A DNA stretch of 32,000 bases from Trichodesmium erythraeum IMS101 (GCF_000014265.1 NC_008312.1:7080001-7112000), one strand, 5' to 3'. Shown: positions 19,417-32,000, counted from the first letter of the stretch. The notes: generated by a model not told the origin, from the letters alone. A program made the numbers and translations.

Positions 19417-20196
19417 CTAATGAGTTAATACTCGTTCTTCTAACTCCAATTCAAAACGTTCTCCTGGTTTGGGTTCGATAATTTTTGTTGCTAAATTACT
19501 TTTAACCAACTGAGACTGTATTTCTTTAATATTTCCTTTTTCTTTGAGGAAAAATATTAATAGTCCTTGAAAGTCTATATCGCCCCCTGCTGCTGTAGGT
19601 AGCATAATTTGAGGTTCTAACCATTGAGCTACTTGTAATGCACTTTCATTTCCTTTAATTATTGGCCCGACTAATGGTAAGTTCAAACTGATAACTGGGG
19701 AAATGACAACATCTACAGGTGCAAATTCTTTGATTTTTTCAGAATGGCTGCCATGGGGCTCATAATATATTGTGTTCCCAGTGCTCAGGTCTTTGAGAAT
19801 ATAACCATTTTCTACTAAAGTTGGGCCCACTAGTGAGCCGGGAACTGCTCTAATTTCAATGCTATTTTCAAAAGCATAGGTATGGCCATGCTCAAGTGTA
19901 ATTACTTGAGAGTAACCTAACTCTTGCACTACTTTTGCTGCGGCCGGAGAGGCAACAACAGGAATGTTTTTGTCTAGCTGCTTAAGAGTTTCTGGGTGAG
20001 CGTGGTCTTCTAGTCCTTGAGATAATACAATAAGGTCTACTTTTTCTGGAATATTACGGGGTGTGAGTCTTTCTCCTTTAAACAACCAAGATAGATTTCC
20101 GAAAACTAGGGGGCCAACGAGCCAAGGATCTATGAGTATTTGTTTACTTCTAATTTCAATTAGCCAGGAATTACTGTCTAACCAAGTTAAGTGCAT
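19417..20196 (-). CDS. MBL-fold metallo-hydrolase family protein
   Basis: 259 aa. The N-terminal beta-lactamase-fold pattern is LTWLDSNSWLIE...ILIDPWL, with the motif region SQGLEDHAHPE and later HG / EPHGSH histidines. Confidence 0.6.
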   Translation of the reverse strand: MHLTWLDSNSWLIEIRSKQILIDPWLVGPLVFGNLSWLFKGERLTPRNIPEKVDLIVLSQGLEDHAHPETLKQLDKNIPVVASPAAAKVVQELGYSQVITLEHGHTYAFENSIEIRAVPGSLVGPTLVENGYILKDLSTGNTIYYEPHGSHSEKIKEFAPVDVVISPVISLNLPLVGPIIKGNESALQVAQWLEPQIMLPTAAGGDIDFQGLLIFFLKEKGNIKEIQSQLVKSNLATKIIEPKPGERFELELEERVLTH

Positions 20197-20532
20197 AGTG
20201 TTTATATGAGTTACGCTTTATCATTATTATTGTAACGATTTATTACAAAGGCAGTAAGTAGGGGGGTTATGACAGGGGAAAATATTGGGTAATGATAATG
20301 AACAGAATAGTGGTTGATTTTTAATGCCTTTTAGGAAGTGATGGTTTTGTTATGAGTGCAAATAGATTTCCTAAATTAAAATCAAAGACTGTGGAGGTGT
20401 GAATAATTTACTAAGATGTATATTTTGTTCTCCATATTTAAGGCGGGTATTTAACTAATGTTGAGTTCAAAATTATTAATTTTAACTTGGCTAAAGGGAA
20501 GAAAAAGGTGATTTTATTTGTACTAATTATTG

Positions 20533-20602
20533 AATAGCTAATGTTTAATAGCTAATATTTAATAACTAATATTTAATAACTAATATTGAATCACTAAAGT
20601 TT
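20533..20602. repeat. 14-bp AT-rich tandem repeat, about 5 copies
   Basis: AATAGCTAATGTTT, AATAGCTAATATTT, AATAACTAATATTT, AATAACTAATATTG, AATCACTAAAGTTT, read directly. Confidence 0.7.
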
Positions 20603-20680
20603 GATAAAAAGTTAACATTAATGTATTCAAGTTTGTATAAGTCACCTTTGAGAGGGTAGCTAATAATAACAGGTATAACC

Positions 20681-20808: not shown

Positions 20809-21771
20809 TTAACTACGGTTAATTTCTGCTAAAATTTGATCTAAGATTTCTTGGGCGCCTTGTTTTCTTAGTTTTTGAGCTAATTCGATGCCTATTTGTT
20901 CTGCATCAGCAGTGGCTCCAGTTACAATATCCTTAACTAATTTCTTACCATCTAAACTAGCGACTAAACCAGTTAAAGTTAGTTGTTCTCCTTCTATTTG
21001 GGTGTTAACACCAATGGGAACTTGACAGCCTCCTTCTAATTCTCTCAGAAAAGCACGTTCGGCATAACATCTCTGAGCAGTGGCAGTATGTTCCAGACTT
21101 TTCAATAAATTGAGAATATTATTATCTCCGGCACGACATTCTATTCCTAAAGCACCTTGTCCAACGGCATGAAGAGAAATTTCTGGAGGTATAATTTGAT
21201 GAATGCGATCGCTCATCCCCAACCTATGCAAACCAGCAAAAGCCAATATTAGAGCATCATACTCACCAGCATCTAATTTTGCTAGTCTAGTATTCAGGTT
21301 ACCACGAACATCTTTAAATTCTAAGTGAGGGAAGTGGTAGCGCAGTTGTGCTAAACGTCTTAGGGAAGAGGTACCAATGACAGCACCTTCTGGTAAAGTC
21401 TCAAGTTGTTTATCTTTTAATTTTTCATGGAGGACTAAAGCATCTGCAGGGTTTTCCCGTTCGGTGACGCAACCGAGAATTAGACCTTCTGGTAAGTTTG
21501 TGGGTAAGTCTTTTAAGGAATGAACTGCTAGGTCAGTTTCATTTTGCAGCATTCCTAATTCTAGTTCTTTAGTAAAAAGCCCTTTATCTCCTATTTTTGC
21601 TAAAGCTACATCTAGAATTTTATCTCCTTGGGTAGACATTTTGTGGACTTCAAATGTAATATTTGGGAAATTTTTTTCAAGTTTTTCTTGGACCCAGTAG
21701 GTTTGAATTAAGGCGAGTTGACTTTTGCGTGAACCGATCCGAATGGTAGGAGTAGAGGCAGATATTGTCAT
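20809..21771 (-). CDS. hemC: hydroxymethylbilane synthase (porphobilinogen deaminase)
   Basis: 320 aa. [49 protein letters not shown] and [17 protein letters not shown] are canonical HemC. Confidence 0.92.
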
Positions 21772-21868: not shown

Positions 21869-22599
21869 ATGTTGGAAGGAAGACTAAAAAAACGAATGTC
21901 ATAAACCCAGGAATTCTGATTTACCTAAAGATTTACCTTCTGAGTCTACAGCCTTTTGCCATTACAAACAGTGGGGTTATCAAGGAATTATAGAGAAGAT
22001 TCCAGACCTTTTGCATGGCCAAGTATCCCAATAGGTAAAAAAAACCAAATGGGCAACTCTTATGATCGTCGCTCCAGAGGCAGTGAAAAATACTTGTAAT
22101 GCTAGTGTAGACTCTAAAGGTTTTTGTTTTTACGAGGCCACTAACAGAATTAAGAGACATAAGGCGATGGATGGTCTCGGTTTTCCCTTTTTTGCCCATT
22201 GTACAAAAGGATCCGTTTCTGATGAAGGACGGGCTATTGAAATGTTATAAGACAACATTGATTACTTTAAATCTAAATCAGTTAACATTGCTAAAGTTAC
22301 TATGGCGAGTTGACAATGGATACCACCCCGAAAAGGTAATAGAAAAGAAAATTTATCCGGCATATATTTGACCAAAATTCGGTTTTAACTATTCCTATTA
22401 CCATCAAAGTTGGAGAAAGAAAATTTGGGAAAAACAGGTTAAGTTTGCGTTAAAGTTAGATGGGCCAATAAATGAAGCAACTCCTGGATGGAAAGATGTT
22501 GAAATAACCAAAAACTTTGAAAGGACTCTTAATAAAGCTACAACCAAGATTAATCTGTGTTTGATCCGACTGATGCTTAAGAGGTTGGGGACCCCATAG
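21869..22599 (+). pseudogene. IS5-family (DDE) transposase relic with internal deletion, stops and frameshifts
   Basis: The pieces are MLEGRLKKRMS*; RNSDLPKDLPSESTAFCHYKQWGYQGIIEKIPDLLHGQVSQ*VKKTKWATLMIVAPEAVKNTCNASVDSKGFCFYEATNRIKRHKAMDGLGFPFFAHCTKGSVSDEGRAIEML*; and, in other frames, SNSWMERC* and FERTLNKATTKINLCLIRLMLKRLGTP*, with stop 22597-22599. Confidence 0.75.
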
Positions 22600-22602
22600 A
22601 TA

Positions 22603-22720
22603 CCTGTAGGGGTTCTATATATAGTAGTCCTAAATAGGTTGCGACCAATCAAAAGTAAATAAAACTGTTAAAACTCTTACCTACTCTCTGTTCCCTTTTC
22701 CCTGTTCCTTAAAAAGCAGT
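22603..22720 (+). repeat. ~118-bp repeat module, copy 1 (immediately after the IS5 relic)
   Basis: CTGTAGGGGTTCTATATATAGTAGTCCTAAATAGGTTGCGACCAATCAAAAGTAAATAAAACTGTTAAAACTCTTACCTACTCTCTGTTCCCTTTTCCCTGTTCCTTAAAAAGCAGT. It ends in heptamer-like CTGTTCC repeats. Confidence 0.7.
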
Positions 22721-22855
22721 ATGATTTTTGCTACGAACACTAATCTAGAAAATTTCAAAAAAATAATCGGGACAGGGCAAAAAAATTACTCTTAAGAAAA
22801 AACAAAGAAGAAATAACTTGTATACAATGCCTGGTAAATTAGGAAGTGATTTTTA

Positions 22856-23027
22856 AAACGTATGTAGGGTATGTAAAAGTCCTAGATAAGTTGCGAAAAA
22901 TCAAAAAGTAAACGTATGTAGGGTATGTAAAAGTCCTAGATAAGTTGCGAAAAATCAAAAAGTAAATAAAACTGTTAAAACTCTTACCTATTTTCTATCC
23001 CCTGTTCCCTGTTCCCTAAAAAGCAGT
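22856..23027 (+). repeat. repeat module, copy 2, with an exact 54-bp internal tandem duplication
   Basis: Units 22856-22909 and 22910-22963 are identical (AAACGTATGTAGGGTATGTAAAAGTCCTAGATAAGTTGCGAAAAATCAAAAAGT). They are followed by AAATAAAACTGTTAAAACTCTTACCTATTTTCTATCCCCTGTTCCCTGTTCCCTAAAAAGCAGT, which is collinear with copy 1. Confidence 0.8.
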
Positions 23028-23137
23028 CGTCCAAAATTGGATTATTACATACCAAACTATTGCTTCTCTACTCTATGAAAAATACCAAGTAGTTGAATAA
23101 GGAACTAACTAACAGATCTTTTTATTCTTTCTGACAA

Positions 23138-23908
23138 ATGACAATTAACACAGTCAAAGAACTTAACTTTTCGACAACTTATATACAGGCGAAGTACGTG
23201 AAAAATGTGGAAAACTATCACATTCATAACCGAACTATCGTCATCAACCCCGAAGAGACAGATGCTTACCTTGAAGAAACTGATGCTTTCTTCAAGAGAA
23301 AAGTTAAAGGCATTGAAAAACATAAAAGCATTATTCCAGCTTTCTCGTCGACTATTCTCAATGATATAGTCGTTGAAAGAGCAAAATCTCTACTTTTGCT
23401 TGAAGTAATAAAGACGAGAAACATTGCTAAGATTATTTTTGAAGAAGGGTGGGCTTTATTGGGCAATTCCCCTGATTCTGACTTTCCTAAAGATGTACCC
23501 CTTTGGAAATCTCCCCAATATACAGCAGGTAGGATATCAGTAGATCCATTCTTTTTGACAAGGCAATCACCACATCCAACTACTCAAGAAGATTTTACTC
23601 TTAAAGTAAACCTATGGTATGCTCCTTCCCATACTGATTGTCTTATTCATGATGAACATGACTTTTTGGAAATTCATACACAAATCTTTGGACAGGGACG
23701 GATGCAAAAGTTCAAAGATCACAGTTTTGATAGTCTCTATGAAGATCTGCTGATGACTGAGGGATACACTCAAATTGTTGCCTTTTGTCAAATCAATGCG
23801 CAAGGAGAATATATTTATCCCTGGCATCAGTATTATTCAGAGACTGATTGCATCTGGATGGCGATCGAATATCATCCTGTGGCTAGAGAATTGTCCAGTC
23901 CAAACTAA
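23138..23908 (+). CDS. hypothetical protein with a C-terminal cupin-like motif
   Basis: 256 aa. CLIHDEHDFLEIHTQIFGQGRMQKF fits the cupin motif 1 style (H-x-x-H...E...G). YPWHQYYSETDCIWMAIEYH is a possible motif 2. It lies 138 nt upstream of the GH31 gene on the same strand. I cannot assign a family from sequence alone. Confidence 0.5.
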   Translation: MTINTVKELNFSTTYIQAKYVKNVENYHIHNRTIVINPEETDAYLEETDAFFKRKVKGIEKHKSIIPAFSSTILNDIVVERAKSLLLLEVIKTRNIAKIIFEEGWALLGNSPDSDFPKDVPLWKSPQYTAGRISVDPFFLTRQSPHPTTQEDFTLKVNLWYAPSHTDCLIHDEHDFLEIHTQIFGQGRMQKFKDHSFDSLYEDLLMTEGYTQIVAFCQINAQGEYIYPWHQYYSETDCIWMAIEYHPVARELSSPN

Positions 23909-24046
23909 CCTTAAGAAGAATATAACTTACGCAGTAACACTAAAATTATATAGTGTACTTTGAGTTATGACTTTTGTTAACGCAAAACTCTATCAAGTTA
24001 AGTCAGATTTGCAATTTCAGTTGTCAAAAATTCAAGGAGTAAAACA

Positions 24047-27000
24047 ATGCCGAGTGAAATTTTTAAAAGTGATCGCCTCTATAAATTTATCAAAGTCGAA
24101 GAATACTTCGATCACTACCAAGAATGGGATAAACTGGGACCTGCAAAAAATCCTGTGTTCGACGGGAAGTACACTTTAAGCCTTACCTTTGATAAGGCCG
24201 GCGGAGGTGAGTGCTCAATGTTGCTTGAGATCACTCAGAACGATGTCTTACGGATGCGCTTTAACCCCAACAAAAAATTAGCAGGGGATTATGCAAGGGG
24301 CACTCGCGTGGATAATGATGAAACAGATGAAGAGATCAAAAGGAATAATCAACGTACTGTAACTTACAGACAAGTTAAGGATATTAAGTTAGGAGATCAG
24401 GTTATATTGACGGCAAAAAGCAATTATAACCAGGTTGGTCGTAATACACCCTTCAATATGGAAGTAGTGATCACTTTAAATCCATTTGGTATCAAAGTAT
24501 TCAACAAGTCCGAATCGAATTCAGAGTATGCCAATATTCCTGTCTGGGAAACCGCAAACACTTCAATTTACTATACCGCTAATGGCACAGATGATTATGC
24601 CATCATTCAGTCGGTCAAGAAGTCGGCCGATGCCAAATATATTGGTTTTGGGGAACAGGGGGGAACTAAACTCAGCAAAAATATGGATCAGTTGAATTAT
24701 TTCAACTTTGATAATATGCGCTATCGACAGGTCTATAATCGTGGACCTTTAGATAACCGCGAACCTCTTTACCACTCTGAGCCTTTCTTTTATGAGTTCA
24801 ATGGCGTTCCTGGTAGCGACAATGTTAATGCAGTTCTAGTGGATAACCCAAGTCAAGTATTCATGGACATAGGCTATAGTAATTCTGGTCGCTATATGTT
24901 TGGGACTCGCTTTGGTGATCTTGACTATTATGTGTTTTTTGGAGAAGACCCGAAGAATATTTTAGATAGCTATACGGCCGTGATCGGTCGCCCAGAGTTG
25001 AAACCGCGCTATGCTTTGGGATATCACCAAGGTTGCTATGGATACGAAAAGCGGAGTGACTTAGAATGGGTTGTGGCGCGATATCGGGATTGGGGTATAC
25101 CCATTGATGGTCTCGCTGTTGATGTTGACTTACAAGCAAATTATCGGACTTTTACTATCAACATCAATAATTTCTGGGAACCAGATAAAATGTTTGATAA
25201 CTTGCGAAAGCAGGGGATAAAATGCTGTACGAACATTACTCCCGTGATCAGCAGTCAAGATAAGCTTGGCAAGACAGATTATGACTACTCAACCTACGTT
25301 GAGGGAAAGAATAACAACTACTTTGTTGTTGATAAGCGCTACGATCCATATAATCCAATTAGTAAAGAGTATCAGATCTATAATGGGGGTATTGAAGATC
25401 GTTCCAACAAAGATGATAATTCCGATCCCGAAGGGTTTGATAGTAGTGAGCCTTACATTGGCGAAGTATATTACGGCAAGGATGCCAATGGTAAAGAGCT
25501 GGGAAGCCCTGGTCATTATCCTGATTTAGGCCGTCAAGAAGTACGCGAATGGTGGGGCAAGCAATATCAATATCTGTATGAAATGGGACTAGAATTTGTC
25601 TGGCAGGATATGACTACCCCAGCTATCCGTGACTTCCGTGGGGATATGAAAGGTTTCCCCTTCCGTCTGTATGTGACTGACGACTTCTATCCCTCGGATG
25701 TCAAACTAACCCCAGCTCTGAAAGTTTGGAATTTGTATTCATACAATTTGCACAAAGCCACCTACGAAGGACTCAATAACCTGTACAAACTATCCAAAGG
25801 ACTAGAGTGGCGCGAAAACAAGCGCAACTATATCATCGGACGAGGGAGTTTTTCTGGTTCTCACAGATATTCTGGTTTATGGACTGGGGATAACTCTTCC
25901 GAATGGGCTTTTCTTCAGATGAATATCTCTCAGGTTCTGTCTCTAGGCATGAACGCTTTGGCAGTTACCGGGCAAGATATCGGAGGTTTCGAGCAAGAAT
26001 ATGGTAACGACAAACAGCAGTGGGCGAGTCCGGAACTGGTAATTCGCTGGACTGCTGCAGGTGCCTTCTTACCATGGTTCCGTAACCACTATGTCCGTAA
26101 GGGTCGTAAAGAATTCCAAGAACCATTCCAATATATAGAGTGGTTTGAGACATGGAACAAGCCAATTCCCGAGCCCCAGGACTTGTACAGGATGGTGCCA
26201 GAGATTTGTAAGCATTATATTGAATTGCGCTACCGTCTGATGCAGTTATTCTACGACACATTGTTTGAGAACACTCTGGATGGTCTGCCTATCTGTCGTC
26301 CTTTGTTCCTCAACGATCCCCAGGACAAGTCTCTTTACAATGATAAAGACGAATTTTTAAACAACGAATTTTTCGTAGGCAAGGATTTTCTCGTTGCTCC
26401 GGTATTGCTTCCTCAGAGTGAAACCAATGGTGGCAAGCGGGATATCTATTTACCTAAGCCTAGCTACTGGTACAACTTTGTCAACAACGTTATGCCTCTT
26501 AATAATGCTTTGGAAGGGGGAACAACGATACGAGATTTTGATGCTAATATCAATACTCGTGACCAGCACATTAACTTTATTGTACCCATCTACGTTCGCT
26601 CGGCAGCAATTATTCCCACAATTGAGTTGGAACAATATGTGGGAGAAAAGAACGCCAAAGGAGAAAAAAATCCTATTACCCTGAATATCTATCCAGACTA
26701 TCAGAAGGAGAATGGAGGAGAATACCACATGTACTTGGATGATGGGGAGAGCCGTTCTTCTGCCCCGAAATCACAAGTGGACGATCCCAAGGCAAACGAC
26801 GAATATCGCGAGATTTTGATTACTAATAAATACACTGGGGAAAAGACCAGAGAGATTAAAGTTAATCGTGTTCACGATGGATATACGCCTATGGAAGACT
26901 TTTTCTTTGTGGCAATATTGCACGATCCTACTGAACAAAAGGGAGAACACGGCCCTTTGCAGGAGGTGACTATGGAAGGTAAACCGCAACAGATGGTTAG

Positions 27001-27124
27001 TGACAATGGTGCCCTCTGGGGTAGCCCTAACAACGCATGGTACTATAATGCAGACATCAATATCAGTTTTATCAAGGTGTTTGATAATATGCCTAAGACA
27101 ACTATCATGTTAGGTTATGTCTAA
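24047..27124 (+). CDS. glycoside hydrolase family 31 protein, alpha-1,4-glucan-lyase-like variant
   Basis: 1025 aa. The GH31 blocks are GLEFVWQDMTTPA (nucleophile Asp block, with T-T-P where hydrolases have N-E-P), GRGSFSGSHRYSGLWTGDNSSEW, GQDIGGF (acid/base Asp) and FLPWFRNH. Confidence 0.8.
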   Translation: MPSEIFKSDRLYKFIKVEEYFDHYQEWDKLGPAKNPVFDGKYTLSLTFDKAGGGECSMLLEITQNDVLRMRFNPNKKLAGDYARGTRVDNDETDEEIKRNNQRTVTYRQVKDIKLGDQVILTAKSNYNQVGRNTPFNMEVVITLNPFGIKVFNKSESNSEYANIPVWETANTSIYYTANGTDDYAIIQSVKKSADAKYIGFGEQGGTKLSKNMDQLNYFNFDNMRYRQVYNRGPLDNREPLYHSEPFFYEFNGVPGSDNVNAVLVDNPSQVFMDIGYSNSGRYMFGTRFGDLDYYVFFGEDPKNILDSYTAVIGRPELKPRYALGYHQGCYGYEKRSDLEWVVARYRDWGIPIDGLAVDVDLQANYRTFTININNFWEPDKMFDNLRKQGIKCCTNITPVISSQDKLGKTDYDYSTYVEGKNNNYFVVDKRYDPYNPISKEYQIYNGGIEDRSNKDDNSDPEGFDSSEPYIGEVYYGKDANGKELGSPGHYPDLGRQEVREWWGKQYQYLYEMGLEFVWQDMTTPAIRDFRGDMKGFPFRLYVTDDFYPSDVKLTPALKVWNLYSYNLHKATYEGLNNLYKLSKGLEWRENKRNYIIGRGSFSGSHRYSGLWTGDNSSEWAFLQMNISQVLSLGMNALAVTGQDIGGFEQEYGNDKQQWASPELVIRWTAAGAFLPWFRNHYVRKGRKEFQEPFQYIEWFETWNKPIPEPQDLYRMVPEICKHYIELRYRLMQLFYDTLFENTLDGLPICRPLFLNDPQDKSLYNDKDEFLNNEFFVGKDFLVAPVLLPQSETNGGKRDIYLPKPSYWYNFVNNVMPLNNALEGGTTIRDFDANINTRDQHINFIVPIYVRSAAIIPTIELEQYVGEKNAKGEKNPITLNIYPDYQKENGGEYHMYLDDGESRSSAPKSQVDDPKANDEYREILITNKYTGEKTREIKVNRVHDGYTPMEDFFFVAILHDPTEQKGEHGPLQEVTMEGKPQQMVSDNGALWGSPNNAWYYNADINISFIKVFDNMPKTTIMLGYV

Positions 27125-27297
27125 GTTACCGATAAGTTTGACGGAAAATCTTTGAATACCAAGCACTATAGTCTGATTTTGATGGTTAAGTTGTGTAAGT
27201 TCCAATAGGGATTTTTTGACTTTGTGTACTTAAAGTTGTCTATGATCATTACGTTTTGAGCTGGTTAATTTAAATATATAAGTAGTCAACATAGGTT

Positions 27298-27336
27298 GGG
27301 GGTGAGTGTAAACTATCTGCGTTTGCACTCACCCCC
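27298..27336 (+). terminator. strong stem-loop downstream of the GH31 gene
   Basis: GGGGGTGAGTGTAAAC-TATCTGC-GTTTGCACTCACCCCC gives a 16-bp stem with one G-U pair and a 7-nt loop. It is followed by a T-rich tract, TTCTATTATC. Confidence 0.6.
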
Positions 27337-27743
27337 TTCTATTATCAATAAGTTTTATCTACTGCTTGAATTTTTATTCAATTCTATTTACTGCTTCATA
27401 AAACTGATATAATATTAGGTTTGGTAGAATTAGCTTTGGTATAATTAGATTGCTAATTACGACTCAGGAGCCGGGAGTTATAGGAGTTAACAATTCAGTC
27501 AATATTTATACTTAAGGTTTCCCTGAGAAAAGAAAGGCAGAGGGCAGAATGTTTTTTCTTATTTGGCTTCATTTTGGGGCAGAAAGGGGGGCTTTTGGGA
27601 TAAAGGAGGAGCTTAAATTGTTAATGGATGACTTCTGTGAAAGGGTATAAGTCTTATCTATATAATTTGCTTATGACTAAAAAAATTAGGTTGATGGCCC
27701 TCTGCTGTTACTAACAACTAATTACTAATAATTATTGATAATT

Positions 27744-30700
27744 ATGGAGAGAAAATATTTAAGGGAAGCTTTAGTAGTTGGAGTTAACCGTTATCCTATG
27801 TTGAAAAATAAAAAAGTAGGAGATTCGAACCTTAAGGCTGCTGCTAAGGATGCTGAAGCTATTGCTAATATGTTGGAAAAATATGGTAAATTTCGAGTTC
27901 AACGTTTGCCAAAAAAATATGATGAGGAAGGTAAAGAAACTTGTGACCATGAGGGAATAGTTAAGGTTGATGATCTTAAAAAAGCAATTATTAATCTATT
28001 TACACCTCCTGGAAAAAATGAAACTCCTGATGTGGCTTTACTGTTTTTTGCCGGGCATGGTTATGTTAATATAGAAGAAGATATTCGAGAGGGTTTTTTG
28101 GCTACTAGTGATGCTAAGTTTGCGAAAAAGCTCTCGAATAATGAAGATATTTTTGGTGTTCCTTTAAGTTGGTTAAAGGATTTATTGCAAAAGAGTCAGG
28201 TTCAAAAACAAATTGTTTGGTTAGATTGTTGTTTTAGTGGTGAATTATTGAATTTTGACGGGGTAGCTAACCTCAATACTCAAGAAAAAAAGGTCAGTCG
28301 CTGTTTTATTACTGCTTCTCGTTCTTTTCAAACTGCTACAGAAAAAATTGATGGAGAACATGGTTTATTTACTGATAATTTGCTGGAATGTTTAAACCCA
28401 GAAAATTATGTTGATGGTTGGGTAGATAATCATGTTTTGACGGAATCTATTCAAGAAAAGATGTCTCAGACATCTCAAGCACCTATGTGTGATAATTCCG
28501 GGGATACAATTATTCTGACTACTAATAGTCTGAATGAACCTCTGGATGAACGTTGGAAAAATGATCCTCCTTATCGGGGTTTATCTTATTTTCGGCAGCA
28601 GGAGAATGATGGGGTATTTTTTCATGGTAGAACTTCGTTAACTGATAAGTTAATTGAGCTAGTAAAAGATAATAATTTTGTGGCGGTTTTGGGGGCTTCC
28701 GGGAGTGGGAAATCTTCTTTGTTACGGGCGGGTTTGTTATATCAATTGAAGCGGGGGCAGAAAATATCGGGAAGTGATAGATGGTTTTATATTGCTCCTT
28801 TTACTCCGGAGGAGTCTCCTCTGAAAAGTCTGCTGAAAAGTCTGGGGAAAAGTCTGGGGGAAATTAAGATTAAGGGGGAAAAAGTTGAAGGTTTAATTCA
28901 GTTTGTTGATCAAACAGAGGCGGAACAAACAGAGGGGAAAAAGGTCGATTTTTTAACTAAGGAATTAATTGAAGAGAAATTAATTGAGTTTATTGATGTG
29001 GTTGAGGCGGAAAGAGTAATTATGGTGATGGACCAATTTGAAGAGTCTTTTACTCTCTGTAAAACTCACGAAGAACGACTGGATTTTTTTGATTGTTTTT
29101 TGGCTGTTTTGGAAAGGCGAGGTGAGAAGTTTTGTGTGGTGTTGGGAATACGGGCTGATTTTCTGGGCCGCTGTTCTGAATATGGAGGGTTGGCCAATAA
29201 AATTCAGGGACATCAATTATTAGTTACTCCTCTGGACGAGGGTGAAATAGAGGAGGTGATCAAAAAACCGGCGAAATTAGTGGGTATGGATGTTGAGCCC
29301 AACTTGGTTGCCAAAATGAGGGAAGATTTTTTGCGTAACCCTGGTAGTTTACCTCTGCTGGAATATACTTTGGATGCTCTGTGGAGTTTTGCGACTCAAG
29401 GGGAGAATAAAAGTCCATATTTAACTCTGGAAAATTATACAAGTTTGGGTGAAATAGAGGGTGCTTTGACGAAGCGAGCTGATGCGGTTTTTGAGAGTTT
29501 GAATGATGAGGAAAAGTCGGTGGCAAAGAGGATATTTTTAGAGTTGGTTCAGCCTGGGGAAGGGAAAATAAGTCCGGGGAAAATAACGGATACTCGGCGG
29601 CGGGTAATTTTGGAAAAGTTGCCTAATGAACGACATAGTTTAGAGCTTTTGTCTGCAGTTAGTGATAGGTTGGCTGACAAAAATAACAGGTTAATGACTA
29701 AGGATAGGTCGGAGGCGGGAATATTATTGGATATTGTTCATGAGGACTTAATTAGAAGTTGGAAAACTTTGAGGAAATGGGTGGAGGAATATCAAGAGGC
29801 TTTGCCGGTGGAAAGAAAAATTGAGGCTGATGCGGCTGACTGGGAAAAAGAGGGGAAAAGTGAGAATTTGTTGTTACGAGCTGGTCGGTTAACTAAGGCG
29901 GAAGAATATCTGGAAAATTATGGTGAAATGGCTTTATTGGATGGGTTGGCTTATGAGTTTATTGAGGCGAGTCGGGAGTTGAAAATTCGTGAGGAAGAAA
30001 AAGAGAAGGAGCGGCAAAGAAAAGAGAAGGAGCGGCAAAGAAAAGTAGAGGAACAAGCAGCAAGAATATTAGGAATGCTTTCTGACTCAATGATCAGACA
30101 AAAGCTATCTTTACTTGATAAAGGTGTATTACTGAGCGTGGAGTCAATGAAGCAATACTTTGATATCAAAAAACGTTATGGAAAAGCTGACTCGGGCCTA
30201 CTTGTTGAACTGGATCAAACTCTACGGAATGGAGTAAGTCAACTACCCAAGCATCTCTATACTCTCAAACACCAGTCCGATGTATATGCAGTAGCCTTTA
30301 GCCCCGACGGCAAAACCATTGCAACTGCAAGTTTAGACAAAACCGCCCGCCTCTGGGATACTGAGAATGGCAATGTATTAGCTACTCTCAACCACCAGTC
30401 CTCGGTAAATGCAGTAGCCTTTAGCCCCGACGGCAAAACCATTGCAACTGCAAGTTATGACAAAACCGCCCGCCTCTGGGATACTGAGAATGGCAAAGAA
30501 TTAGCTACTCTCAACCACCAGGACTGGGTAAATGCAGTAGCCTTTAGCCCCGACGGCAAAACCATTGCTACTGCAAGTTATGACAAAACCGCCCGCCTCT
30601 GGGATACTGAGAATGGCAAAGAATTAGCTACTCTCAACCACCAGTCCTCGGTAATAGCAGTAGCCTTTAGCCCCGACGGCAAAACCATTGCTACTGCAAG

Positions 30701-32000
30701 TTCTGACAAAACCGCCCGCCTCTGGGATACTGAGAATGGCAATGTATTAGCTACTCTCAACCACCAGGACTGGGTAATAGCAGTAGCCTTTAGCCCCGAC
30801 GGCAAAACCATTGCAACTGCAAGTTCTGACAAAACCGCCCGCCTCTGGGATACTGAGAATGGCAAAGTATTAGCTACTCTCAACCACCAGTCCTCGGTAA
30901 ATGCAGTAGCCTTTAGCCCCGACGGCAAAACCATTGCAACTGCAAGTTCTGACAAAACCGCCCGCCTCTGGGATACTGAGAATGGCAAAGTATTAGCTAC
31001 TCTCAACCACCAGTCCTCGGTAAGAGCAGTAGCCTTTAGCCCGGACGGCAAAACCATTGCAACTGCAAGTTATGACAAAACCGCCCGCCTCTGGGATACT
31101 GAGAATGGCAATGTATTAGCTACTCTACTCCACCAGGACTTGGTAATAGCAGTAGCCTTTAGCCCCGACGGCAAAACCATTGCTACTGCTAGCTGGGACA
31201 AAACCGCCCGCCTCTGGGATACTGAGAATGGCAAAGTATTAGCTACTCTCAACCACCAGTCCTCGGTAAGAGCAGTAGCCTTTAGCCCGGACGGCAAAAC
31301 CATTGCAACTGCAAGTTCTGACAAAACCGCCCGCCTCTGGGATACTGAGAATGGCAAAGTATTAGCTACTCTCAACCACCAGTCCTCGGTAAATGCAGTA
31401 GCCTTTAGCCCCGACGGCAAAACCATTGCAACTGCAAGTTCTGACAAAACCGCCCGCCTCTGGGATACTGAGAATGGCAAAGTATTAGCTACTCTCAACC
31501 ACCAGTCCTCGGTAAGAGCAGTAGCCTTTAGCCCGGACGGCAAAACCATTGCAACTGCAAGTTCTGACAAAACCGCCCGCCTCTGGGATACTGAGAATGG
31601 CAAAGTATTAGCTACTCTCAACCACCAGTCCAGGGTATTTGCAGTAGCCTTTAGCCCCGACGGCAAAACCATTGCTACTGCAAGTTCTGACAAAACCGCC
31701 CGCCTCTGGGATACTGAGAATGGCAATGTATTAGCTACTCTCAACCACCAGTTCTGGGTAAATGCAGTAGCCTTTAGCCCCGACGGCAAAACCATTGCAA
31801 CTGCAAGTTCTGACAAAACCGCCCGCCTCTGGGATACTGAGAATGGCAAAGTATTAGCTACTCTCAACCACCAGTCCAGGGTATTTGCAGTAGCCTTTAG
31901 CCCCGACGGCAAAACCATTGCTACTGCAAGTTCTGACAAAACCGCCCGCCTCTGGGATACTGAGAATGGCAAAGAATTAGCTACTCTCAACCACCAGTCC
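27744..32000 (+). CDS. caspase-like (peptidase C14) - STAND P-loop NTPase - WD40 repeat protein, 3' end beyond the window
   Basis: The frame is open from ATG 27744 (in-frame TAA at 27729) to the window end, more than 1418 codons with no stop in my manual translation. The caspase dyad is FFAGHGY (His codon 28056-28058) and WLDCCFSG (Cys codons 28227-28232). The STAND entry motif is DPPYRGLSYF...VFFHGR, with Walker A GASGSGKSS and Walker B VIMVMDQFEE. A charged linker (EKERQRK x2) precedes at least 14 WD40 units from 30255. It is not in the ORF track because it has no stop in the window. Confidence 0.9.
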   Translation, partial: MERKYLREALVVGVNRYPMLKNKKVGDSNLKAAAKDAEAIANMLEKYGKFRVQRLPKKYDEEGKETCDHEGIVKVDDLKKAIINLFTPPGKNETPDVALLFFAGHGYVNIEEDIREGFLATSDAKFAKKLSNNEDIFGVPLSWLKDLLQKSQVQKQIVWLDCCFSGELLNFDGVANLNTQEKKVSRCFITASRSFQTATEKIDGEHGLFTDNLLECLNPENYVDGWVDNHVLTESIQEKMSQTSQAPMCDNSGDTIILTTNSLNEPLDERWKNDPPYRGLSYFRQQENDGVFFHGRTSLTDKLIELVKDNNFVAVLGASGSGKSSLLRAGLLYQLKRGQKISGSDRWFYIAPFTPEESPLKSLLKSLGKSLGEIKIKGEKVEGLIQFVDQTEAEQTEGKKVDFLTKELIEEKLIEFIDVVEAERVIMVMDQFEESFTLCKTHEERLDFFDCFLAVLERRGEKFCVVLGIRADFLGRCSEYGGLANKIQGHQLLVTPLDEGEIEEVIKKPAKLVGMDVEPNLVAKMREDFLRNPGSLPLLEYTLDALWSFATQGENKSPYLTLENYTSLGEIEGALTKRADAVFESLNDEEKSVAKRIFLELVQPGEGKISPGKITDTRRRVILEKLPNERHSLELLSAVSDRLADKNNRLMTKDRSEAGILLDIVHEDLIRSWKTLRKWVEEYQEALPVERKIEADAADWEKEGKSENLLLRAGRLTKAEEYLENYGEMALLDGLAYEFIEASRELKIREEEKEKERQRKEKERQRKVEEQAARILGMLSDSMIRQKLSLLDKGVLLSVESMKQYFDIKKRYGKADSGLLVELDQTLRNGVSQLPKHLYTLKHQSDVYAVAFSPDGKTIATASLDKTARLWDTENGNVLATLNHQSSVNAVAFSPDGKTIATASYDKTARLWDTENGKELATLNHQDWVNAVAFSPDGKTIATASYDKTARLWDTENGKELATLNHQSSVIAVAFSPDGKTIATASSDKTARLWDTENGNVLATLNHQDWVIAVAFSPDGKTIATASSDKTARLWDTENGKVLATLNHQSSVNAVAFSPDGKTIATASSDKTARLWDTENGKVLATLNHQSSVRAVAFSPDGKTIATASYDKTARLWDTENGNVLATLLHQDLVIAVAFSPDGKTIATASWDKTARLWDTENGKVLATLNHQSSVRAVAFSPDGKTIATASSDKTARLWDTENGKVLATLNHQSSVNAVAFSPDGKTIATASSDKTARLWDTENGKVLATLNHQSSVRAVAFSPDGKTIATASSDKTARLWDTENGKVLATLNHQSRVFAVAFSPDGKTIATASSDKTARLWDTENGNVLATLNHQFWVNAVAFSPDGKTIATASSDKTARLWDTENGKVLATLNHQSRVFAVAFSPDGKTIATASSDKTARLWDTENGKELATLNHQS
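30255..32000 (+). repeat. 123-bp (41-codon) tandem array, 14 full units plus a partial one, encoding WD40 blades
   Basis: The exact period of 123 was verified from GCAGTAGCC at 30288, 30411 and 30534. The unit is LATLNHQxxVxAVAFSPDGKTIATASxDKTARLWDTENGxx. The DNA is nearly identical between units. Confidence 0.95.

What the first reader, a model, noticed from the sequence alone, without database searches (positions are those of the whole stretch)
30255..32000. WD40 array is near-identical at DNA level, with differences confined to predicted ligand-contact codons
**Seen in sequence.** The 14 units of 123 bp are almost identical, and amino-acid differences are confined to a few positions.
- The two residues after HQ vary: SS, DW, DL, SR, FW, SD.
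- The residue after the next V varies: N, I, R, F, Y.
- The residue before the conserved Asp in AS-x-DKT varies: S, Y, W, L.
- The last two residues vary: KV, NV, KE.
- Outside these positions, only unit 1 (LYTLK for LATLN) and unit 8 (LL for LN) differ.
- Silent differences are rare, for example GCA/GCT.
- CCC/CCG tracks the SSVR cassette in units 7, 9 and 11.
- Whole cassettes recur: SSVR x3, SRVF x2, SSVN x3.

**Established knowledge.**
- The varying positions correspond to the WD40 top-face hotspot positions, namely the start of strand a and the residue before the b-c turn Asp.
- Fungal NLRs of the HET-E/NWD type show the same signature of highly internally conserved repeats with hypervariable contact codons. 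There it is attributed to unequal crossing-over or gene conversion plus diversifying selection.

**Inference.**
- This is a recombination-driven, rapidly re-programmable recognition surface in a bacterial NLR-like protein.
- The repeat DNA is about 50 percent GC (62/123 counted). One 60-nt line of the caspase-domain DNA of the same ORF gave about 37 percent. This compositional break fits homogenisation or a separate origin.
Basis: partly seen in the sequence, partly recalled or inferred. Interest (0 to 1): 0.85.

Follow-up and report, generated by a model that had tools for sequence, protein, structure and literature searches.

The report
Hypervariable WD40 sensor in Trichodesmium caspase-NLR
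The near-identical 123-bp repeats are real: they form the sensor propellers of a known Trichodesmium caspase–NTPase "immune-receptor-like" protein (Tery_4625), and they vary almost only at the predicted ligand-contact residues, a pattern already described for cyanobacterial and fungal proteins of this kind.

Summary
Observation confirmed. Window 30255-32000 holds 14 in-frame 123-bp WD40 units that are 94-95% identical in DNA. Amino-acid variation sits at unit positions 8, 9, 11, 27, 40 and 41.

The ORF (27744 to beyond 32000) is identical to the first 1418 residues of Tery_4625 of Trichodesmium erythraeum IMS101. The architecture is caspase, nSTAND1 NTPase, 15 WD40 units and a helical tail.

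Positions 9, 11 and 27 are the published WD40 top-face hotspots R1-2, R1 and D-1. Position 8 adjoins them. Positions 40 and 41 lie at the c-d loop, not on the top face.

- Hot codons have pN 0.40, against scaffold pS 0.055 and pN 0.004.
- An ortholog with pS 0.019 in the N-terminal part differs at hot codons with pN 0.56.
- Units are mosaics: all four gametes occur in 32 of 61 site pairs.
- Repeat silent divergence between paralogous arrays (0.05-0.07) matches that within arrays, while N-terminal pS is 0.19-0.38.
- Paralog Tery_2471 shows a conversion-like tract at the array's 5' edge.

Function is inferred.

The phenomenon is already published for cyanobacteria and fungi. This is a clean new example, not a new kind.

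The parts
27744..32000 (+). 5' 1418 codons of Tery_4625 (T. erythraeum IMS101; 1510 aa). The ORF runs off the window end.
   Evidence: The frame is open from 27732, with ATG at 27744. The translation is identical to the first 1418 aa of P0123, which is ABG53597.1 / WP_011613914.1 / Q10VX7.
27768..28493 (+). Caspase-like (Peptidase_C14, orthocaspase p20) effector domain. The catalytic His motif FFAGHGY is at 28044-28064 and the Cys motif WLDCCFSGE at 28218-28244.
   Evidence: Pfam PF00656, E 8e-12, aa 9-250. PADLOC 'caspase', E 2.7e-12.
28569..29864 (+). nSTAND1 NTPase (STAND-class oligomerisation module). Walker A GASGSGKSS is at 28692-28718 and Walker B VIMVMDQFEE at 29016-29045.
   Evidence: Pfam PF20703, E 1e-107, aa 276-707.
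29865..30254 (+). Helical linker before the array. It contains a perfect in-frame 21-bp duplication (29999-30045, KEKERQR x2). Its last ~120 codons are nearly identical at silent sites to paralog Tery_2471.
   Evidence: TRF. The duplication is polymorphic among orthologs. pS is 0.01-0.04 here, against 0.2-0.35 in the NTPase core.
30255..31976 (+). 14 WD40 units of 123 bp (41 aa), 94-95% identical in DNA. Unit k starts at 30255 + 123(k-1). Each unit is strand d (positions 41 and 1-5), d-a loop (6-9), strand a (10-15), a-b loop (16-19), strand b (20-26), b-c turn (27-29), strand c (30-35) and c-d loop (36-40).
   Evidence: TRF. Unit table. Pfam WD40, 14 stretches, E 1.9e-164. AlphaFold2 model with pLDDT 91 and DSSP strand map. 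Best PDB match is 2YMU.
30276..30287 (+). Hypervariable top-face codons 8, 9 and 11 of unit 1. The same offsets (+21..+26 and +30..+32 from each unit start) recur in all 14 units. Codon 9 is R1-2 and codon 11 is R1.
   Evidence: Entropy is 1.1-2.2 bits within the array and 2.3-2.8 bits over 46 Trichodesmium units. Hotspot rule from PMC3419727.
30333..30335 (+). Hypervariable codon 27 (D-1, the residue before the tetrad Asp) of unit 1. The same offset (+78..+80) recurs in every unit.
   Evidence: Residues S, Y, W and L occur within the array. Entropy is 3.0 bits over 46 units.
30372..30377 (+). Dimorphic codons 40 (K/N) and 41 (V/E) of unit 1. The same offset (+117..+122) recurs in every unit. 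They lie at the end of the c-d loop and the start of strand d, not on the top face. The polymorphism is shared with arrays of other Trichodesmium genomes.
31977..32000 (+). First 8 codons of unit 15 (LATLNHQS...). Beyond the window, the rest of unit 15 and a three-helix tail follow.
   Evidence: 24 nt left over. Full protein P0123. Model of 15 units plus tail.

Best explanation
**What it is.** The array encodes the sensor of an NLR-like, single-chain death switch. This is Tery_4625, a caspase-like protease fused to an nSTAND1 NTPase and 15 WD40 blades, probably folded as a 7-bladed plus an 8-bladed propeller, followed by a small helical tail.

**Scaffold and variable sites.** The blade scaffold includes the Asp-His-Ser-Trp tetrad. 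It is kept almost identical in DNA by frequent recombination: unequal crossing-over and short-tract gene conversion. This recombination acts among units of one array and among paralogous arrays such as Tery_2471. Four residues per blade line the top face: positions 8, 9 (R1-2), 11 (R1) and 27 (D-1). They are kept diverse and are reshuffled as short cassettes. Each allele therefore shows a different binding surface on an unchanged fold.

**Proposed mechanism.** A ligand (phage, foreign cell or stress-derived protein) binds the propeller top face. This releases the NTPase to oligomerise and brings the caspase domains together, leading to proteolysis and cell death.

**Shown here.** Architecture and catalytic motifs. 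Where the variation lies. An excess of non-synonymous change at the hot codons. Mosaic units. Decoupling of repeat history from the history of the host genes. Different alleles in near-identical strains.

**Inferred.** Ligand binding at the top face, diversifying selection as the cause, and the immune or non-self-recognition role.
For: **Architecture.**
- Peptidase_C14 (E 8e-12), nSTAND1 (E 1e-107) and WD40 x14 (E 1.9e-164).
- The His and Cys dyad motifs and Walker A and B are present.

**Identity.** The ORF equals Tery_4625 of IMS101, 1510 aa with 15 units.

**Fold.**
- The AlphaFold2 model has pLDDT 91 for 14 units.
- The model of 15 units plus tail has pLDDT 84, with a confidence dip at the unit 7/8 boundary.
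- Best structural matches are the cyanobacterial highly repetitive propeller 2YMU, then Apaf-1.

**Site mapping.**
- DSSP puts positions 6-9 in the d-a loop, position 11 at the start of strand a, and positions 27-29 in the b-c turn.
- V10-N11-A12-V13 fits the (V/L/I)-R1-R2-(V/L/I) rule, so R1 is 11, R1-2 is 9 and D-1 is 27 (PMC3419727).

**Selection-like signal.**
- Within units 2-14, hot codons have pN 0.40 and pS 0.08. The 35 scaffold codons have pS 0.055 and pN 0.004.
- 11 of 18 allele pairs at hot codons differ by 2-3 nucleotides.
- The syntenic MAG_R01 ortholog has N-terminal pS 0.019 and pN 0.010. Hot-codon pN against it is 0.56, with identical scaffold in unit 1.
- Four strains carry four different unit-1 cassettes: SDVY-L, DSVR-Y, DSVF-D and SYVN-S. 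Their N-termini are at least 97% identical.

**Recombination.**
- All four gametes occur in 32 of 61 informative site pairs, including the silent site 69.
- There are no fixed differences and 11 shared polymorphic columns between orthologous arrays.
- Scaffold pS between arrays of paralogs and species is 0.05-0.07, about equal to the within-array value. N-terminal pS is 0.375 against L004 and 0.19 against Tery_2471.
- pS drops to 0.01-0.04 in the ~120 codons before the array and into unit 1 against Tery_2471.

**Codon usage.** The conserved codons are mostly rare ones for this genome, which argues against codon-usage selection.

**Generality.** The same four positions are the entropy peaks over 46 units from five Trichodesmium assemblies.
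Against: - No ligand, phenotype or expression was tested here. The neighbours are housekeeping genes, not a defence island. PADLOC finds only the generic caspase model.
- pN/pS among units that exchange sequence is not a clean test of selection. Homogenisation of the scaffold lowers pS, and old hot-codon alleles can persist without current positive selection.
- All comparison arrays except IMS101 come from short-read MAGs. Their unit order and number may be chimeric or collapsed. L001 keeps only 2 units, and several database proteins break in unit 1.
- I had no model coordinates. The top-face assignment rests on strand topology and a published sequence rule, not on measured exposure.
- Positions 40 and 41 vary although they are not on the top face.
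- Cross-species similarity of the repeats could partly reflect a small true species divergence, which I could not measure with housekeeping genes for L003 and L004.
Confidence: 0.72

Rival explanations
1. Very recent amplification of a single blade (the 'recently amplified propeller' model of Lupas and co-workers). Ordinary point mutation followed, and the changes were tolerated mainly at exposed loop positions. There is no ongoing exchange and no diversifying selection.
For: - Near-identity of the blades.
- The closest solved relative, WRAP / 2YMU, is interpreted in exactly this way (PMC6805158, PMC9218822).
- In WRAP, too, the recurrent change sits at the R1-equivalent position.
- Loops are the least constrained parts of a blade.
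Against: - Neutral change would give pN about equal to pS. Here hot-codon pN is 0.40-0.56, against pS 0.02-0.08.
- Other exposed loops never vary: SPDG in the a-b loop and TENG in the c-d loop.
- 32 of 61 site pairs fail the four-gamete test, including pairs with a silent site.
- Silent and replacement polymorphisms are shared between arrays, with no fixed differences.
- Unlike WRAP, this array has silent polymorphism (pS 0.055).
- Paralogous arrays are as alike as units within one array.
Confidence: 0.12
2. The protein is a stress or programmed-cell-death regulator that binds the cell's own proteins. The blade-to-blade differences are fixed functional specialisation of a large scaffold, not an evolving non-self receptor.
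For: - The gene sits among housekeeping genes.
[quoted passage not shown] The equation TeMC9 = Tery_4625 is from my memory and was not checked.
- WD40 propellers are generic scaffolds.
Against: A fixed scaffold predicts conserved hot residues between orthologs. Instead, orthologs with 98-99% identical N-termini share none of the unit-1 cassettes, and hot-codon pN is 0.56. The two roles are not mutually exclusive, because a non-self sensor can also drive bloom collapse.
Confidence: 0.12
3. Assembly artefact: the number or order of units in the window is wrong because near-identical 123-bp repeats were mis-assembled.
For: - Short-read assemblies clearly fail here. L001 keeps 2 units, MAG_R01 keeps 8, and several proteins are 'partial', ending in unit 1.
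- Published work on fungal HIC repeats shows that Illumina assemblies of such arrays are unreliable (PMC12222747).
Against: - The window is identical to the deposited protein of IMS101, which sits on a single 7.75-Mb contig.
- The reading frame is intact over 15 units.
- Units are distinguishable: 12 of 14 are unique.
- An independent 2010 survey counted 14-15 WD40 repeats in the IMS101 metacaspases (PMC2853523).
- The site-wise pattern (where variation lies) does not depend on unit order.
Confidence: 0.05
4. Targeted hypermutation by a diversity-generating retroelement (DGR), as known for other cyanobacterial STAND sensors.
For: Trichodesmium and other cyanobacteria carry DGRs that diversify sensor domains of STAND proteins (PMC7517822 listed; PMC8195603).
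Against: - No reverse transcriptase is encoded in the 32-kb window.
- With any unit taken as template, only 16-57% of differences fall on template adenines, where a DGR would give about 100%.
- Variable columns include C/G, G/T and C/T changes.
- Known DGR targets are C-type-lectin/FGS folds, not WD40.
Confidence: 0.02

Closest known systems
WRAP domain of Npun_R6612, Nostoc punctiforme (PDB 2YMU; 'recently amplified propeller')
   Same: - It is a cyanobacterial STAND-associated WD40 array with almost identical blades that forms a double propeller.
- It is the best sequence and fold match: E 2e-177, 55-59% identity.
- Its recurrent blade-to-blade change (W/R/N) lies at the position equivalent to our position 11.
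   Different: - WRAP has 14 blades, 10 amino-acid changes and no silent differences, and is read as a one-off very recent amplification (PMC6805158, PMC9218822).
- Here there are 15 units, four strongly hypervariable positions, 5% silent polymorphism, mosaic units and sharing between arrays.
- The caspase is in the same polypeptide.
Fungal HNWD NLRs (HET-E, HET-D, HET-R, NWD family of Podospora anserina)
   Same: - WD40 repeats with 80-100% internal identity are maintained by concerted evolution, including exchange between paralogs.
- A few codons are under diversifying selection at the predicted interaction surface.
- Short-read assemblies are unreliable (PMC12222747).
- Their positions 11, 12, 14, 30 and 32 correspond to our 8, 9, 11, 27 and 29 when aligned on the His, R1 and Asp landmarks. 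This correspondence is my inference.
   Different: - Fungal proteins have a NACHT NTPase and a HET or other effector, against nSTAND1 and caspase here.
- The unit is 126 bp, against 123 bp here.
- Function (allorecognition of HET-C) is demonstrated in the fungus and unknown here.
- Repeat-number polymorphism is proven there and only suggested here.
Apaf-1 and bacterial Apaf-1-like caspase-STAND-WD40 proteins (PMC13581612)
   Same: - Tripartite logic: effector, STAND NTPase and WD40 double-propeller sensor.
- 15 WD units suggest a 7+8 arrangement as in Apaf-1.
- Apaf-1 is the second-best fold match.
[quoted passage not shown]
   Different: - Apaf-1 recruits procaspase-9 through CARD, whereas here the protease is fused.
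- Pfam assigns the NTPase to nSTAND1, not NB-ARC.
- Apaf-1 blades are fully diverged, not near-identical.
Highly-Repetitive (HR) WD40 proteins catalogued by Hu et al. 2017 (PMC5587647)
   Same: - The class is defined by high internal repeat identity and is enriched in cyanobacteria and fungi.
- The authors noted high diversity at predicted hotspot sites.
- Q10VX7_TRIEI and Q111Z3_TRIEI are listed in their supplementary dataset.
   Different: That study is a catalogue at the protein level. It has no DNA-level, dN/dS, recombination or between-strain analysis of this protein.
Antiphage STAND systems (Avs, bNACHT)
   Same: Effector, STAND NTPase and repeat sensor sit in one chain. Activation is by binding a foreign protein.
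   Different: - Their sensors are mostly TPR-like and not internally near-identical.
- Specificity is for conserved phage proteins rather than a diversifying surface.
- There was no match to those PADLOC models here.

Membership tests
WD40 beta-propeller repeat | Repeats of about 40 aa match the WD40 profile. | tested here: met
   PF00400 matches 14 stretches, E 1.9e-164.
WD40 beta-propeller repeat | Four-stranded blades carry the Asp-His-Ser/Thr-Trp tetrad. | tested here: met
   H6, S26, D28 and W34 are invariant in all 14 units. DSSP of the AlphaFold2 model shows four strands per unit, pLDDT 91.
Highly repetitive / highly internally conserved (HIC) WD40 arrays | Internal repeat identity is far above ordinary WD40: more than 60% median in PMC9218822, and 80-100% in fungal HIC. 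| tested here: met
   DNA identity is 94-95%, and 35 of 41 residues are invariant in units 2-14, apart from one change in unit 8.
NLR-like STAND protein (effector, NTPase, repeat sensor) | A central STAND NTPase has Walker A and B motifs. | tested here: met
   nSTAND1 PF20703, E 1e-107. GASGSGKSS and VIMVMDQFEE are present.
NLR-like STAND protein (effector, NTPase, repeat sensor) | An N-terminal effector domain is present. | tested here: met
   Peptidase_C14, E 8e-12, with His (FFAGHGY) and Cys (LDCCFSG) motifs. Catalytic activity was not tested.
NLR-like STAND protein (effector, NTPase, repeat sensor) | Ligand-induced oligomerisation activates the effector. | not testable with these tools
   This needs biochemistry or genetics.
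Fungal HNWD-type evolutionary regime (works like; not the same gene family) | Hypervariable codons lie at the predicted interaction surface. | tested here: met
   Entropy peaks at positions 8, 9, 11 and 27. These are the d-a loop, the start of strand a and the b-c turn, and correspond to R1-2, R1 and D-1. No coordinates were available for a direct exposure measurement.
Fungal HNWD-type evolutionary regime (works like; not the same gene family) | Non-synonymous change exceeds synonymous change at those codons. | tested here: met
   pN/pS is 3.6-5.2 within the hot codons. pN is 0.40 against scaffold pS 0.055. pN is 0.56 against ortholog flank pS 0.019. These are counts only, with no likelihood model.
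Fungal HNWD-type evolutionary regime (works like; not the same gene family) | Concerted evolution and exchange occur among units and among paralogs. | tested here: met
   Four-gamete test, 32 of 61 pairs. Between-array pS is about equal to within-array pS and far below N-terminal pS. A low-pS tract is shared with Tery_2471. Caveat: the comparison arrays come from MAGs.
Fungal HNWD-type evolutionary regime (works like; not the same gene family) | Repeat-number polymorphism occurs between strains. | tested here: inconclusive
   Counts are 15 units (IMS101), 8 (MAG_R01) and 2 (L001). The lower counts come from short-read assemblies that collapse such arrays.
Fungal HNWD gene family (homology) | A NACHT NTPase with a HET or related effector. 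| tested here: not met
   No NACHT or HET hit at E of 0.001 or better. The NTPase is nSTAND1 and the effector is a caspase.
Apaf-1 / AP-ATPase family | An NB-ARC (AP-ATPase) NTPase domain. | tested here: not met
   Pfam gives nSTAND1, AAA_16 and nSTAND3 only. Fold similarity is limited to the propellers.
DGR target | A nearby reverse transcriptase, and a template repeat with adenine-specific differences. | tested here: not met
   No RT in the window. The adenine share of differences is 16-57% for any unit taken as template. The rest of the genome was not searchable.

The most novel reading that the evidence does not exclude
The caspase-nSTAND1-WD40 paralogs of Trichodesmium (Tery_4625, Tery_2471 and relatives in other species) draw on one common pool of 123-bp blade units. 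These units are continually exchanged between loci, and perhaps between species, and top-face cassettes are re-assorted in the process. This would be a bacterial counterpart of the fungal HNWD combinatorial receptor repertoire. Because this orthocaspase is reported to be induced at bloom collapse, allele-specific sensing of phage or foreign trichomes by these propellers could be a trigger of Trichodesmium population crashes.
Probability: 0.3. Interest if true: 0.7.

Novelty: new member of a known kind. Interest (0 to 1): 0.4.

Why it matters
**If the reading is right.** A globally important nitrogen-fixing, bloom-forming cyanobacterium would carry receptors that diversify by repeat shuffling, as fungal allorecognition NLRs do. 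These receptors are wired directly to a caspase-like protease.

**A concrete test.** This makes an old question testable: what triggers metacaspase-linked bloom collapse in Trichodesmium? The four hot residues per blade define the specificity surface. They can be compared between strains and swapped experimentally.

**A practical warning.** Every short-read assembly examined breaks or collapses at this array. Metagenome-derived inventories of such receptors are therefore systematically truncated.

**Limits.** The general phenomenon is already published for cyanobacteria and fungi: highly repetitive WD40 arrays with variable hotspots in STAND proteins. The value here is a well-resolved example with comparative support, not a new principle.

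Tried and rejected
- **Junction scan of metagenome contigs.** An exact-match scan with the unique linker/unit-1 junction, meant to collect more unit-1 alleles, found nothing.
- **Repeat-core scan of metagenome contigs.** This returned one locus (L011), an unrelated STAND-WD40 gene with a different repeat consensus. It was not used.
- **Protein search with seven WD units.** Meant to list paralogous arrays, it returned only generic short WD40 proteins, because candidate selection is word-based. It was uninformative.
- **DNA of IMS101 paralog Tery_2471.** No gene with this product is on record. I used the 100%-identical N-terminal product from the GBRTRLIN201 MAG (L013) instead. This covers only the N-terminus and part of unit 1.
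- **Genome scan.** The scan did not return the window's own genome, so other IMS101 arrays could not be read at DNA level.
- **Model coordinates.** They are not exposed by the tools. Solvent exposure and top-face distance could not be computed, and mapping relies on DSSP topology and the published R1/D-1 rule.
- **DGR hypothesis.** Tested and rejected.
- **Codon-usage selection.** Considered as the cause of silent-site conservation and rejected, because the conserved codons are mostly rare in this genome.
- **Separate origin read from the GC break.** Not decidable. About half the excess GC follows from amino-acid composition, and GC3 rises in steps (0.2, 0.4, 0.5) across the three domains.
- **Literature search for 'Tery_4625'.** It found no paper in the searchable library.

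Full report
**1. What is in the sequence**

Tandem Repeats Finder reports a single array at 30260-32000: period 123 bp, 14.2 copies, 94% matches, no indels.

- 24 of 123 columns vary among all units, and 18 vary among units 2-14.
- Mean pairwise identity is 93.9%, or 94.8% without unit 1.
- Units 6 and 10, and units 9 and 11, are identical in DNA.

This covers the residue sets after HQ, after the next V and before the Asp. It also covers the KV/NV/KE endings, the cassette counts, the CCC/CCG linkage to the SSVR cassette and the silent GCA/GCT site.

Additions:
- Unit 8 carries three private silent changes.
- Unit 1 uses another Leu codon.
- The array continues beyond the window.

**2. The gene**

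The frame is open from 27732, with an ATG at 27744, and runs off the window end.

| Feature | Evidence |
|---|---|
| Peptidase_C14, aa 9-250 | E 8e-12 |
| nSTAND1, aa 276-707 | E 1e-107 |
| WD40, 14 stretches | E 1.9e-164 |
| Caspase His and Cys motifs | FFAGHGY, LDCCFSG |
| Walker A and B | GASGSGKSS, VIMVMDQFEE |

The 1418 translated residues are identical to the start of P0123. P0123 is ABG53597.1 / WP_011613914.1 / Q10VX7, Tery_4625 of Trichodesmium erythraeum IMS101. It is 1510 aa long and lies on a 7.75-Mb contig.

The full protein has 14 near-identical units, a 15th terminal unit and a tail of about 70 aa. A 2010 survey had already listed IMS101 metacaspases with 14 or 15 WD40 repeats (PMC2853523). 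Q10VX7 and the paralog Q111Z3 are in the supplementary dataset of the 2017 catalogue of prokaryotic WD40 proteins.

The neighbouring genes are housekeeping ones: hemB, hemC, folE, cobW, recO and a GH31 hydrolase. There is no reverse transcriptase and there are no defence genes.

**3. Where the variable residues sit**

An AlphaFold2 model of the 14 units has mean pLDDT 91. Its DSSP pattern gives the following map for each unit.

| Element | Unit positions |
|---|---|
| Strand d | 41, 1-5 |
| d-a loop | 6-9 |
| Strand a | 10-15 |
| a-b loop | 16-19 |
| Strand b | 20-26 |
| b-c turn | 27-29 |
| Strand c | 30-35 |
| c-d loop | 36-40 |

By the established WD40 convention, the d-a and b-c connections form the top face. 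Wu et al. 2012 define the top-face hotspots as R1, R1-2 and D-1, with R1 inside the motif (V/L/I)-R1-R2-(V/L/I) (PMC3419727). Here the motif is V10-N11-A12-V13. So R1 is position 11, R1-2 is position 9 and D-1 is position 27. Position 8 is the neighbouring loop residue.

Positions 40 and 41 lie at the opposite end of the blade. The title claim that differences are "confined to contact codons" therefore holds for four of the six variable positions.

A model of all 15 units plus the tail has pLDDT 84. Confidence dips at the unit 7/8 boundary, and the tail forms three helices. This suggests 7 + 8 blades. The best fold matches are 2YMU and then Apaf-1.

**4. Is the pattern more than tolerated drift?**

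Within units 2-14:

| Codon class | pN | pS |
|---|---|---|
| Four hot codons (8, 9, 11, 27) | 0.40 | 0.08 |
| 35 scaffold codons | 0.004 | 0.055 |
| Codons 40 and 41 | 0.16 | no silent change |

Most allele pairs at hot codons differ by two or three nucleotides. Other exposed loops (SPDG, TENG) are invariant.

The strongest comparison is between orthologs. The syntenic gene of Trichodesmium MAG_R01 (L012) has N-terminal pS 0.019 and pN 0.010 against the window. Hot-codon pN between the arrays is 0.56. Unit 1, which is anchored in unique upstream sequence, has an identical scaffold but differs at the hot codons.

Four assemblies with at least 97% identical N-termini carry four different unit-1 cassettes:
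- SDVY-L in IMS101
- DSVR-Y in the ENA contig L001
- DSVF-D in ALOHA_ZT_67
- SYVN-S in MAG_R01

In L001, all 9 nucleotide differences in unit 1 fall in codons 8, 9, 11 and 27.

Over 46 units from five Trichodesmium assemblies, the entropy peaks are positions 27, 9, 11 and 8. Positions 29, 5, 41 and 40 follow.

**5. Evidence for recombination**

- Among 12 informative columns, 32 of 61 pairs from different codons show all four gametes. These include pairs with the silent site 69. The units are therefore mosaics, not a clean duplication tree.
- Short linkage blocks exist: AGA at codon 11 goes with CCG at codon 17, and AGG-TTT goes with GCT at codon 23.
- Orthologous arrays share 11 polymorphic columns and have no fixed difference.
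- An exact-match genome scan with the repeat core found the same unit in arrays of Trichodesmium MAG_R02, R03 (two loci) and R04. More diverged versions occur in Okeania and Dapis.
- Scaffold silent divergence between the window array and those of L003 and L004 is 0.06-0.07, the same as within arrays (0.05-0.06). The N-terminal parts of the same genes differ by pS 0.375 for L004.
- L013 encodes a product 100% identical to Tery_2471 residues 1-834. Against it, N-terminal pS is 0.19 overall and 0.2-0.35 in the NTPase core. It falls to 0.01-0.04 over the last ~120 codons before the array and into unit 1, which carries the same SDVY cassette in both paralogs. This looks like a recent conversion tract.

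The conserved codons are mostly rare for this genome, including CTC, TCC, TCG, AGC, GGC, ACC and CGC. Codon-usage selection therefore does not explain the silent-site conservation.

Caveats:
- All comparison arrays come from short-read MAGs, so unit order and locus assignment may be chimeric.
- pN/pS among exchanging units is only a rough indicator of selection.

**6. The GC break**

The array is 0.50 GC, against 0.36 for the window. Given its amino acids and the local codon usage, 0.435 would be expected. Roughly half of the excess is therefore compositional and half reflects GC-rich codon choice: GC3 is 0.49, against 0.20-0.44 in neighbouring genes.

GC3 rises in steps along the gene: about 0.2 in the caspase domain, about 0.4 in nSTAND1 and about 0.5 in WD40. 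Because one 41-codon unit is simply repeated, the array contributes a sample of one unit. The break is real, but it does not discriminate between biased conversion, an old foreign origin of the STAND-WD module, and chance.

**7. Rivals**

- **Recent amplification with drift.** This is contradicted by the pN excess, the invariant other loops, the mosaicism and the shared polymorphism.
- **DGR.** This is contradicted by the absence of an RT gene and by non-adenine changes. At most 57% of differences fall on template A.
- **Assembly artefact.** It cannot be excluded for unit number and order without long reads. The window matches the deposited protein of the IMS101 genome, the frame is intact, and the site-wise pattern does not depend on unit order.
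- **Endogenous regulatory role.** This is compatible with reports that TeMC9, an orthocaspase with WD40 domains, is induced under Fe limitation and at bloom collapse (PMC5756287). The identification TeMC9 = Tery_4625 is from my memory. This role does not predict the allelic turnover at hot residues.

**8. Comparison with what is known**

- **Cyanobacterial WRAP.** The near-identity of WD40 blades in cyanobacterial STAND proteins has been known since the WRAP work. WRAP is PDB 2YMU: no silent differences, with recurrent change at the R1-equivalent position (PMC6805158, PMC9218822).
- **HR WD40 catalogue.** Hu et al. 2017 defined Highly-Repetitive WD40 proteins, found them enriched in cyanobacteria and fungi, and noted diversity at the predicted hotspots.
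- **Bacterial NLRs.** Dyrka et al. 2020 stated that bacterial NLRs share highly internally conserved WD/TPR repeats with fungal NLRs. They suggested that these might diversify in the same way.
- **Apaf-1-like proteins.** A 2026 survey describes cyanobacterial Apaf-1-like proteins with N-terminal caspase-like proteases and WD40 propeller sensors.
- **Fungal HNWD.** The hypervariable positions (10, 11, 12, 14, 30, 32, 39) line up with ours (8, 9, 11, 27, 29) at an offset of three, when aligned on the His, R1 and Asp landmarks. This is my inference.

By homology, the protein is not a member of the fungal HNWD family (no NACHT, no HET) nor of the AP-ATPases (no NB-ARC). It works like them.

**9. 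Verdict**

This is a well-resolved new example of a known kind. New here, as far as I could find, are:
- the quantitative hot-codon excess;
- the allele differences between near-identical strains;
- the decoupling of repeat history from gene history in Trichodesmium.

I score interest at 0.4.

Noticed in passing
window 21869-27636: A 5.77-kb segment lies between hemC and the caspase gene. It holds a perfect 54-bp x2.1 tandem repeat at 22856-22966, a 256-aa ORF at 23138-23908 with no Pfam hit, and a GH31 glycoside hydrolase gene at 24047-27124. It is absent from two otherwise collinear Trichodesmium contigs (L001, L012), where hemC ends about 190 bp before the gene. Flanks are 99.4% and 98.0% identical to L001.
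   Followed up: partly
window 29999-30045: A perfect in-frame 21-bp duplication (KEKERQR KEKERQR) lies in the linker before the array. It is polymorphic: two copies in IMS101, L001 and ALOHA_ZT_67, and one copy in MAG_R01, strain 21-75 and paralog Tery_2471.
   Followed up: yes
window 28823-28863 (and aa 335-415 of the ORF): An in-frame 12-bp x3.4 repeat (KSLLKSLGKSLG) lies between Walker A and Walker B. The surrounding segment is indel-rich and fast-evolving. Paralog identity there is only 20-55% and pN is about 0.3-0.5, much higher than in the rest of the NTPase.
   Followed up: partly
window 27744-31998: Third-position GC rises in steps along the one gene: about 0.2 in the caspase domain (like the neighbouring housekeeping genes), about 0.4 in nSTAND1 and about 0.5 in the WD40 array. 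GC skew flips from strongly positive to negative at about 30200.
   Followed up: partly
window 30578-31057 and 31070-31990, minus strand: Long antisense ORFs (159 and 306 aa) lie inside the array. They are most simply a by-product of a repeat unit that lacks stop codons in that frame.
   Followed up: no
L001 12512-12880; proteins P0002, P0121, P0122; L012: Public short-read assemblies break or collapse at this array. The ENA contig keeps 2 units, MAG_R01 keeps 8, and several NCBI proteins are 'partial' and end in unit 1. Repeat counts for such receptors in MAG-based surveys are therefore unreliable.
   Followed up: partly
window 20522-20607: An AT-rich tandem repeat (14-bp unit x5.4, also read as 28 bp x3) lies in the intergenic region between the beta-lactamase-fold gene (19417-20196) and hemC (20809-21771).
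   Followed up: no
L004 and L003 (Trichodesmium MAG_R03, MAG_R02): Arrays of the same repeat family in these MAGs contain irregular units, with 3-aa insertions such as KTAQTARLWD and truncated units such as LLYLSAVAFSPDG. These could be real decay or assembly chimeras.
   Followed up: no
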